Shown piece after piece: positions 1 to 584 of a stretch of DNA of 584 nt (position 1 is the first letter of the stretch; every line of letters starts with the position of its first letter). Below the pieces are notes generated by a model. It worked only from the letters and a program-made list of their open reading frames with translations, had not been told where the DNA came from and searched no databases. This DNA comes from Escherichia coli (GTDB lineage Bacteria; Pseudomonadota; Gammaproteobacteria; Enterobacterales; Enterobacteriaceae), in the NCBI RefSeq assembly GCF_003334335.1, contig NZ_QOWQ01000168.1, one strand, 5' to 3'. The position numbers and the translations under genes are program-made.

Positions 1-1
1 G

Positions 2-484
2 AAGCAGGCGATGGTGGGGATAGTCGGGAGTATCGGCAGCGCCATTGGCGGTGCTTTCGGTGGTGGTGCGTCTGCCTTCACGGGGACGGCCATTCAGGCT
101 GCGGCGGCGAACTTCCATTTCGCGACCGGGGGATTTACGGGGACGGGGGGTAAATATGAACCTGCGGGGATTGTTCATCGCGGGGAGTTTGTCTTCACGA
201 AGGAGGCGACCAGCCGGATTGGTGTCGGCAATCTGTACCGCCTGATGCGGGGCTATGCGGAAGGTGGTTATGTCGGCGGTGCCGGAAGTCCGGCGCAGAT
301 GCGGCGGGCGGAAGGCATTAATTTTAATCAGAACAATCACGTGGTGATTCAGAACGACGGCCCCAACGGGCGGGCAGGGCCGCAGCTGATGAAAGCGGTG
401 TATGAGATGGCCCGCAAGGGGGCACAGGATGAAATCCGGCTGCAGTTGCGTGATGGCGGTATGTTATCAGGGAGCGGTGGATGA
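2..484 (+). CDS. H: Tail tape measure protein, C-terminal portion (lambda gpH-like). The CDS is 5'-partial: the reading frame is open from position 2 with no upstream stop, so the ATG at 11 is an internal Met codon, not the start. Stop codon TGA at 482..484.
   Basis: Open frame from the window edge to the TGA at 482-484. The translation (…GGYVGGAGSPAQMRRAEGINFNQNNHVVIQNDGPNGRAGPQLMKAVYEMARKGAQDEIRLQLRDGGMLSGSGG*) matches what I recall of the C-terminal end of lambda tape measure protein gpH. It is immediately followed by a gpM-like gene with the same ATGA overlap as the lambda H-M junction. The Gly/Ala-rich hydrophobic stretch is typical of tape measure C-terminal regions. Codon usage is GC-rich and coherent throughout. 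Confidence 0.85.
   Translation, partial: KQAMVGIVGSIGSAIGGAFGGGASAFTGTAIQAAAANFHFATGGFTGTGGKYEPAGIVHRGEFVFTKEATSRIGVGNLYRLMRGYAEGGYVGGAGSPAQMRRAEGINFNQNNHVVIQNDGPNGRAGPQLMKAVYEMARKGAQDEIRLQLRDGGMLSGSGG
470..474 (+). promoter_or_regulatory. Shine-Dalgarno / ribosome binding site for the gpM-like gene, embedded in the 3' end of the tape measure coding sequence
   Basis: GGGAG at 470-474, 6 nt upstream of the ATG at 481. There is no intergenic space, which implies translational coupling. Confidence 0.55.
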
Positions 485-584
485 AAACCTTTCGCTGGAA
501 AGTGAAGCCGGATATGGAGGTGAACTCGCAGCCATCGGTGCGTGAAGTGCGTTTTGGTGACGGGTACTCACAGCGTATGGCGGC
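481..584 (+). CDS. M: Minor tail protein M (lambda gpM-like), N-terminal 34 codons. The CDS is 3'-partial: the last complete codon ends at 582 and the gene continues past the window.
   Basis: ATG at 481 is preceded by GGGAG at 470-474 with a 6-nt spacer. The translation MKTFRWKVKPDMEVNSQPSVREVRFGDGYSQRMA closely resembles what I recall of the lambda gpM N-terminus (MKTFRWKV…VRFGDGYSQR…). Its position directly downstream of the tape measure gene matches the conserved H-M-L-K-I-J order. Confidence 0.85.
   Translation, partial: MKTFRWKVKPDMEVNSQPSVREVRFGDGYSQRMA

What the first reader, a model, noticed from the sequence alone, without database searches (positions are those of the whole stretch)
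470..484. ATGA stop/start overlap couples the tape measure and gpM-like genes
The M start codon (ATG, 481-483) overlaps the tape measure stop codon (TGA, 482-484) by a +1 shift, and the Shine-Dalgarno GGGAG lies inside the upstream ORF. This is the standard arrangement for translationally coupled phage tail genes, where termination and reinitiation keep the stoichiometry of tail-tip initiator components fixed. It is expected rather than novel, but it confirms that both ORFs are real genes in one operon.
Basis: seen in the sequence. Interest (0 to 1): 0.25.

Follow-up and report, generated by a model that had tools for sequence, protein, structure and literature searches.

The report
Lambda-type H–M tail gene ATGA overlap
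The window holds the end of a lambda-type tail tape measure gene and the start of the next tail gene (M), joined by the same four-base stop/start overlap found in phage lambda, so this is an ordinary, already known arrangement.

Summary
ATG 481-483 and TGA 482-484 share ATGA, and GGGAG lies at 470-474, six bases before the ATG.

The upstream frame is the C-terminal domain of a lambda-type tape measure protein (TIGR01541, above the curated cut-off). The downstream frame is the N-terminus of gpM, the distal tail protein (PF05939). The window is 99.7% identical to E. coli prophages. Lambda has the same overlap (H 10542..13103, M 13100..13429).

All 159 lambda-clade loci examined (71 distinct junction sequences) keep ATGA and a GGAG or GAGG core at the same distance. 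The third base of the last H codon, which is the A of the ATG, never varies, while 10 of the 11 preceding third positions do. More distant gpM homologues use other junctions: 1-base overlap, 8-base overlap, 2-base gap, or a real spacer. So the exact ATGA is specific to the lambda clade.

ATG 481 is the only start codon upstream of the conserved TFxW motif, and all 109 residues of lambda gpM are resolved by cryo-EM. The downstream ATG 514 is therefore excluded.

Translational coupling is plausible by analogy, because four of five tested E. coli ATGA pairs are coupled. It is not shown here, and the fixed-stoichiometry claim is inference. Verdict: already known, low interest.

The parts
1..484 (+). 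3' end of a lambda-type tail tape measure gene H. There are 160 sense codons in frame 2-481, then the stop TGA at 482-484. This corresponds to the gpHC region of lambda gpH: the Gly-rich segment plus the C-terminal helix that binds gpI.
   Evidence: TIGR01541 tape_meas_lam_C scores 125.8 bits against a cut-off of 104.75. PHROG tape measure families match. The aligned CDS in prophage SK1144 is 3923-6484, which is 853 aa as in lambda. PMC12617516 describes gpHC.
470..474 (+). Shine-Dalgarno-like GGGAG inside H (codons Gly-Ser), 6 nt upstream of the M start.
   Evidence: Duplex with the 16S 3' end is -7.7 kcal/mol, against -3.3 or weaker for every other in-frame start candidate. All 71 distinct lambda-clade junctions carry GGGAG or GGAGG at this place, although the encoded residues differ (Gly-Ser or Gly-Gly).
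481..484 (+). ATGA: the M start codon ATG (481-483) overlapping the H stop codon TGA (482-484).
   Evidence: The same overlap is annotated in lambda (H 10542..13103, M 13100..13429), in SK1144 and in PhiR5_1. It is invariant in 159 loci and 71 distinct sequences.
481..584 (+). 5' end of gpM (distal tail protein, Phage_min_tail). The first 34 codons read MKTFRWKVKPDMEVNSQPSVREVRFGDGYSQRMA.
   Evidence: phrog_14 and phrog_15552 match. The full-length protein of the 99.7%-identical prophage matches PF05939 over residues 2-108 against model positions 1-108. It also matches lambda gpM chains 8iyk_M and others at 2.4e-55 over residues 1-109.
434..513 (+). Predicted local RNA structure that brackets the junction: an 8-bp stem, 434-441 ATCCGGCT with 506-513 AGCCGGAT, plus inner hairpins. 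It is lineage-specific and its function is unproven.
   Evidence: The minimum-free-energy fold is -36.7 kcal/mol with z = -3.2. The stem has 7-8 pairs in 20 of 71 variants but only 2-5 pairs in lambda-type variants, with no compensatory changes. The SD-to-AUG stretch is about half unpaired.

Best explanation
**Shown.** The window spans the junction of two adjacent genes of a lambda-type prophage tail operon.
- The tape measure gene H ends at TGA 482-484.
- The distal tail protein gene M starts at ATG 481-483.
- An SD (GGGAG, 470-474) is embedded in the last codons of H.
- The arrangement is conserved with lambda.

**Inferred.** A ribosome terminating on UGA 482-484 has the M start codon directly under it. 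The SD keeps the 30S or 70S on the mRNA, so M is initiated largely by termination-reinitiation. Some de novo initiation at the same SD probably also occurs. This links M output to H output.
For: **Gene identities**
- Searches identify both genes.

**Junction and its conservation**
- The junction is visible in the sequence.
- The same ATGA is annotated in lambda, SK1144 and PhiR5_1.
- 159 of 159 loci and 71 of 71 distinct junctions keep ATGA.
- The four-fold-degenerate third base of H's last codon is always A. By contrast, 10 of the 11 preceding third positions vary.

**The SD**
- Its core is kept in both haplotypes despite a Ser/Gly difference in the protein.
- The SD energy is -7.7 kcal/mol against -3.3 or weaker for the other candidate starts.

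**ATG 481 is the true start**
- The M frame is closed by TGA 451-453, and ATG 481 is the only start codon before the TFxW motif, which lies 2-5 residues after the start in the distant homologues.
- M codons 2-11 vary mainly at third positions: five third-position and three second-position columns vary, and no first-position column does.
- All 109 residues of lambda gpM are resolved by cryo-EM (PMC10721106).

**One transcription unit**
- No promoter-like or terminator-like site lies between the genes.
- Tight junctions are the rule in this operon. The spacings include -8, -4, -20, -4, -1 and -4.

**Base rate for coupling**
- Four of five native E. coli ATGA pairs were coupled, and removing the SD reduced reinitiation by 60-100% in four of five (PMC6728339).
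Against: - No experiment on H-M coupling was found in the held literature.
- One of the five tested E. coli ATGA pairs (bioBF) is not coupled (PMC6728339).
- The RBS is only about half paired in predicted structures and the AUG sits in a loop, so independent initiation is possible.
- Distant homologues function with spacers of 60-370 nt between the tape measure gene and M. Coupling is therefore not required for this gene pair in general.
- Virion copy numbers may be 3 H to 6 M (PMC10721106). Simple 1:1 reinitiation would not deliver that ratio.
Confidence: 0.7

Rival explanations
1. The overlap is only genome compaction. M is translated by independent, de novo initiation at its own SD, and its output does not depend on H translation.
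For: The SD is reasonably strong (-7.7 kcal/mol). The AUG lies in a predicted loop, and the RBS is about 50% accessible. bioBF, a native E. coli ATGA pair, initiates de novo (PMC6728339). Distant homologues have uncoupled, spaced junctions. A 3:6 H:M virion ratio (PMC10721106) would need more M than H.
Against: Four of five tested E. coli ATGA pairs were coupled (PMC6728339). A terminating ribosome physically covers the M RBS, so the two events cannot be independent when H is being translated. The junction stays tight (-8 to +2) in 12 of the 18 phage loci tabulated, counting lambda and SK1144.
Confidence: 0.25
2. The true M start is a downstream codon such as ATG 514-516, so the ATGA overlap is incidental.
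For: ATG 514 is in frame.
Against: There is no SD before 514 (-3.3 kcal/mol). Residues 1-11 (MKTFRWKVKPD) are conserved at the protein level, and their variation is mainly at third codon positions. PF05939 and lambda gpM align from residues 1-2. The TFxW motif upstream of 514 is conserved in distant homologues. All 109 residues of lambda gpM are seen in the cryo-EM model, and K2 and W6 make contacts (PMC10721106, PMC12617516).
Confidence: 0.02
3. The overlap is a sequencing or assembly artefact, or the site makes an H-M fusion by -1 frameshifting.
For: The M frame is -1 relative to H and is open from 454. Homopolymer indels do occur in this gene in other records (PhiR5_1 has G5 where the window has G6 at 145-150).
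Against: The same junction appears in over a hundred independent assemblies and in lambda. There is no X XXY YYZ slippery heptamer between 454 and 481 in the H frame (read directly). No Rfam match was found.
Confidence: 0.01

Closest known systems
Phage lambda H-M junction (J02459: H 10542..13103, M 13100..13429)
   Same: The two genes are the same, H is 853 aa in both, and the ATGA overlap is the same. An SD sits at the same distance, inside the last Gly-rich codons of H.
   Different: The SD is GGAGG in lambda and GGGAG here. The H C-terminus is ...LFSGGGR in lambda and ...MLSGSGG here. M is about 80% identical. The stem 434-441/506-513 predicted here is absent from lambda.
Native E. coli gene pairs with a 4-nt ATGA overlap tested for termination-reinitiation (hyfHI, astDB, ydbH/ynbE, menDH, bioBF; Huber et al. 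2019, PMC6728339)
   Same: The genes are co-directional, share the ATGA overlap, and have an SD inside the upstream gene.
   Different: Those pairs were tested with reporters, and four of five were coupled. The H-M pair was not tested here, and no such test was found in the held literature.
Tape measure/gpM junctions of more distant siphophages (mEp460, Fels-1, phiKO2, Bcep176, ZQG1, BR322a, BP-4795, HK633)
   Same: The gene order is the same and the stop-start spacing is very short, mostly with an SD inside the tape measure gene.
   Different: These use a 1-nt overlap (TAATG or TGATG), an 8-nt overlap with a GTG start, or a 2-nt gap instead of ATGA. One lambda-clade variant has converted to TGATG through a single C-to-T change.
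Lambda G/GT programmed -1 frameshift (same operon)
   Same: It is a translation-level device that sets the ratio of two tail assembly proteins. This rests on established knowledge, not on a test here.
   Different: It works through a slippery heptamer and yields a fusion protein. No slippery site is present at the H-M junction.

Membership tests
Lambda-type tape measure protein, C-terminal domain (NCBIfam TIGR01541 tape_meas_lam_C) | The score is above the curated whole-protein cut-off of the model. | tested here: met
   Score 125.8 bits against a cut-off of 104.75. Residues 1-120 of the fragment align to model positions 213-332 of 332.
gpM / Phage_min_tail (Pfam PF05939), distal tail protein | A full-length match to the family profile and to lambda gpM. 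| tested here: met
   The window fragment (34 aa) matches phrog_14 at 1.3e-11. The full protein from the 99.7%-identical prophage matches PF05939 at 4.1e-38, model 1-108 of 108, and lambda gpM chains at 2.4e-55.
Stop/start-overlapping co-directional gene pair (-4, ATGA) | The upstream stop codon and the downstream start codon share ATGA, and both ORFs are real genes on the same strand. | tested here: met
   The overlap is conserved in 159 of 159 loci.
Stop/start-overlapping co-directional gene pair (-4, ATGA) | An SD motif for the downstream gene lies inside the upstream ORF. | tested here: met
   GGGAG at 470-474 gives -7.7 kcal/mol. A GGAG or GAGG core is conserved in all 71 variants. The chance rate of an equally strong SD in this G-rich region is 5-14%.
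Translational coupling by termination-reinitiation | Translation of the downstream gene falls when ribosomes are stopped before reaching the overlap, at constant mRNA level. | not testable with these tools
   This needs a reporter or ribosome-profiling experiment. No H-M data were found in the held literature.
Translational coupling by RNA unfolding | [quoted passage not shown] | tested here: not met
   The predicted structure is lineage-specific with no compensatory changes. The unpaired probability of positions -12 to +3 is 0.34-0.58 across the 71 variants, and the AUG lies in a loop.

The most novel reading that the evidence does not exclude
The invariant ATGA overlap might enforce roughly equimolar synthesis of H and M. 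That would fit the contested model of six tape measure copies per tail matched to the six-membered gpM ring, rather than 3:6. In the window's own lineage, the extra stem bracketing the junction might tighten this dependence.
Probability: 0.12. Interest if true: 0.3.

Novelty: already known. Interest (0 to 1): 0.07.

Why it matters
It matters little beyond annotation. The result fixes the M start and the H stop for this prophage, and it shows that the junction is under selection to stay overlapped within the lambda clade. The only link to an open question is the copy number of the lambda tape measure protein, three or six per tail. A measured H:M synthesis ratio at this coupled junction would be one indirect piece of evidence on that.

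Tried and rejected
- **RNA structure as the basis of coupling.** The window folds well (z = -3.2). However, the bracketing stem is not conserved, shows no compensatory changes, and does not strongly occlude the RBS. I rejected it as a family feature.
- **Known RNA families.** An Rfam search of both strands found nothing at E <= 1.
- **Internal promoter or terminator between H and M.** None was found.
- **H-M fusion by -1 frameshift.** There is no slippery heptamer between 454 and 481.
- **Downstream start at ATG 514.** Rejected on SD strength, protein conservation and the cryo-EM N-terminus (PMC10721106).
- **First viral-contig scan.** It returned only loci with 100% identical M. I obtained diversity from a second scan with lambda gpM and from 16 hand-picked distant phage records.
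- **Lambda ribosome-profiling paper.** I tried to read it (the DOI and PMC id were recalled from memory). It is not held.
- **Direct H-M coupling or polarity data.** Literature searches found none.
- **Minus-strand ORFs at 324-425, 349-417 and 467-571.** These are short and lie inside conserved coding sequence of the plus strand. I treated them as chance.

Full report
**1. The observation**

The window reads ...TTATCAGGGAGCGGTGGATGAAAACC.... GGGAG is at 470-474, ATG at 481-483 and TGA at 482-484. The long frame that ends at 484 is open from the left edge of the window; one search lists it from its first ATG at position 11. The frame of ATG 481 is closed by TGA 451-453 and then stays open to the right edge.

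The ATG lies one base upstream of the TGA, so M is in the -1 frame relative to H.

As bare strings the motifs are not significant:
- ATGA occurs 6 times against 4.3 expected.
- GGAG-N4-9-ATGA occurs once against 0.13 expected, and 26 of 200 shuffles have at least one.
- An equally strong Shine-Dalgarno (SD) site precedes 5% of positions in H and 13.5% of positions in its G-rich last 480 nt.

The case rests on context and conservation.

**2. What the two ORFs are**

The upstream 160 codons match NCBIfam TIGR01541 (tape_meas_lam_C) at 125.8 bits, above the 104.75 cut-off. They also match PHROG tape measure families.

The downstream 34 codons match phrog_14, minor tail protein. The window is 99.7% identical to prophages in many E. 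coli chromosomes and 99.8% identical to phage PhiR5_1. In prophage SK1144 the aligned genes are an 853-aa tape measure protein (locus 3923-6484) and a 109-aa protein (6481-6810), set in a complete lambda-like order U-V-G-T-H-M-L-K-I-J.

That 109-aa protein matches Pfam PF05939 from model position 1. It also matches lambda gpM in five PDB entries over residues 1-109.

**3. Comparison with lambda and relatives**

Lambda is annotated H 10542..13103 and M 13100..13429, which is the same ATGA overlap. The alignment puts lambda's GGAGG exactly where the window has GGGAG.

I collected 159 lambda-clade loci with at least 120 nt upstream of M. They give 71 distinct junction sequences:
- All 71 keep ATGA.
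- The A of the ATG is also the third base of H's last sense codon (GGA or CGA, a four-fold degenerate site), and it never varies. In contrast, 10 of the 11 preceding H third positions do vary.
- The SD occurs as GGGAG (Gly-Ser) or GGAGG (Gly-Gly), so the purine core is kept while the protein changes.
- One variant carries CGA-to-TGA. This moves the H stop 3 nt upstream and turns the junction into the TGATG type.

Distant gpM homologues in 16 phage records show other solutions:
- 1-nt overlap, TAATG or TGATG: mEp460, Fels-1, Bcep176, ZQG1, phiKO2, BR322a.
- 8-nt overlap with a GTG start: BP-4795, 689R5.
- 2-nt gap: HK633, Len.
- Spacers of 60-370 nt, sometimes with inserted ORFs: Rovert, Opt-148, S107, Pm86, phiPMW.

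A tight junction is therefore common, while the exact ATGA belongs to the lambda clade.

**4. The true start of M**

- ATG 481 is the only start codon between the in-frame stop at 451-453 and the TFxW motif. That motif lies 2-5 residues after the start in the distant homologues.
- Its SD scores -7.7 kcal/mol, against -3.3 or weaker for ATG 514 and the other in-frame candidates.
- Codons 2-11 vary mainly at third positions: five third-position and three second-position columns vary, and no first-position column does.
- PMC10721106 reports that all 109 residues of lambda gpM are resolved. PMC12617516 describes contacts made by K2 and W6.

So is a sequencing error, since the same junction recurs in independent assemblies.

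**5. Mechanism**

*Shown.* The two genes are co-directional. No promoter-like or terminator-like site lies between them. The stop and start overlap, and an SD sits 6 nt upstream.

*Inferred.* A ribosome terminating at UGA 482-484 can reinitiate on AUG 481-483 with help from the SD. The inference rests on PMC6728339. There, four of five native E. coli ATGA pairs were coupled, and removing the SD lowered reinitiation by 60-100% in four of five. The review PMC12548453 sets out the two models, RNA unfolding and ribosome scanning or reinitiation.

I tested the unfolding model computationally:
- The window folds well (z = -3.2), with an 8-bp stem 434-441/506-513 around the junction.
- The stem is confined to the window's lineage: 7-8 pairs in 20 of 71 variants, and 2-5 pairs in lambda-type variants.
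- It shows no compensatory changes.
- The SD-to-AUG stretch is about half unpaired.

So there is no conserved structure occluding the RBS. Reinitiation, together with some de novo initiation, is the likelier route.

**6. Stoichiometry**

gpM forms a six-membered ring (PMC10721106, PMC12617516). gpH is reported as a trimer from its C-terminal helix (PMC10721106) or as six copies of gpH* with only three ordered C-terminal fragments (PMC12617516).

Equimolar coupled synthesis would suit 6:6. A 3:6 ratio would need extra independent initiation of M.

Tight junctions are general in this operon. The spacings include -8, -4, -20, -4, -1 and -4. The H-M overlap is one instance of a pervasive layout rather than a special device.

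**7. Verdict**

Two caveats apply: coupling and stoichiometric control are inferred, and the exact ATGA is clade-specific. The arrangement is already annotated in lambda and in thousands of prophages. Novelty: already known. Interest: low.

Noticed in passing
window 145-150 (L001 about 4145; L001 CDSs 1911-4244 and 4244-4483): Phage PhiR5_1 has a run of five G where the window and SK1144 have six. Its tape measure gene is therefore annotated as two CDSs. This is either a homopolymer sequencing error or a real frameshift in the gpHC region of a phage described as complete.
   Followed up: partly
window 434-441 and 506-513: A perfect 8-bp inverted repeat, ATCCGGCT/AGCCGGAT, brackets the H-M junction. 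The 100-nt fold has z = -3.2. It is present with 7-8 pairs in 20 of 71 related junctions and absent from lambda-type ones.
   Followed up: yes
lambda-clade junction variant u34_1 (from the loci; equivalent to window 479-484): One variant reads GGA TGA TGA. A C-to-T change makes the last H codon a stop, which converts the 4-nt ATGA overlap into a 1-nt TGATG overlap. This shows how the two common junction types interconvert.
   Followed up: partly
junction variants u22_1 and u47_1 (equivalent to window about 360-480): Two related viral contigs have the H frame interrupted by stops within its last 40 codons, while M and the ATGA remain intact. They are probably decaying prophages or assembly errors.
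   Followed up: no
L002 8835-9179 (SK1144 prophage, between I and J): The annotated I-to-J spacing is 343 nt in this prophage, against 60 nt in lambda. This could be an insertion or a mis-called J start.
   Followed up: no
L002 8254-8257 (the K-I junction): The K-I junction is a GTGA 4-nt overlap with no detectable SD (+1.2 kcal/mol). If it is translated, it would depend more heavily on reinitiation than the H-M junction does.
   Followed up: no
window 1-484: The window encodes almost exactly the C-terminal fragment gpHC of the tape measure protein. That is the Gly-rich region where lambda gpH is cleaved, plus the helix (lambda residues 818-849) that binds gpI. The cleavage site and the protease are still unknown according to PMC12617516.
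   Followed up: no
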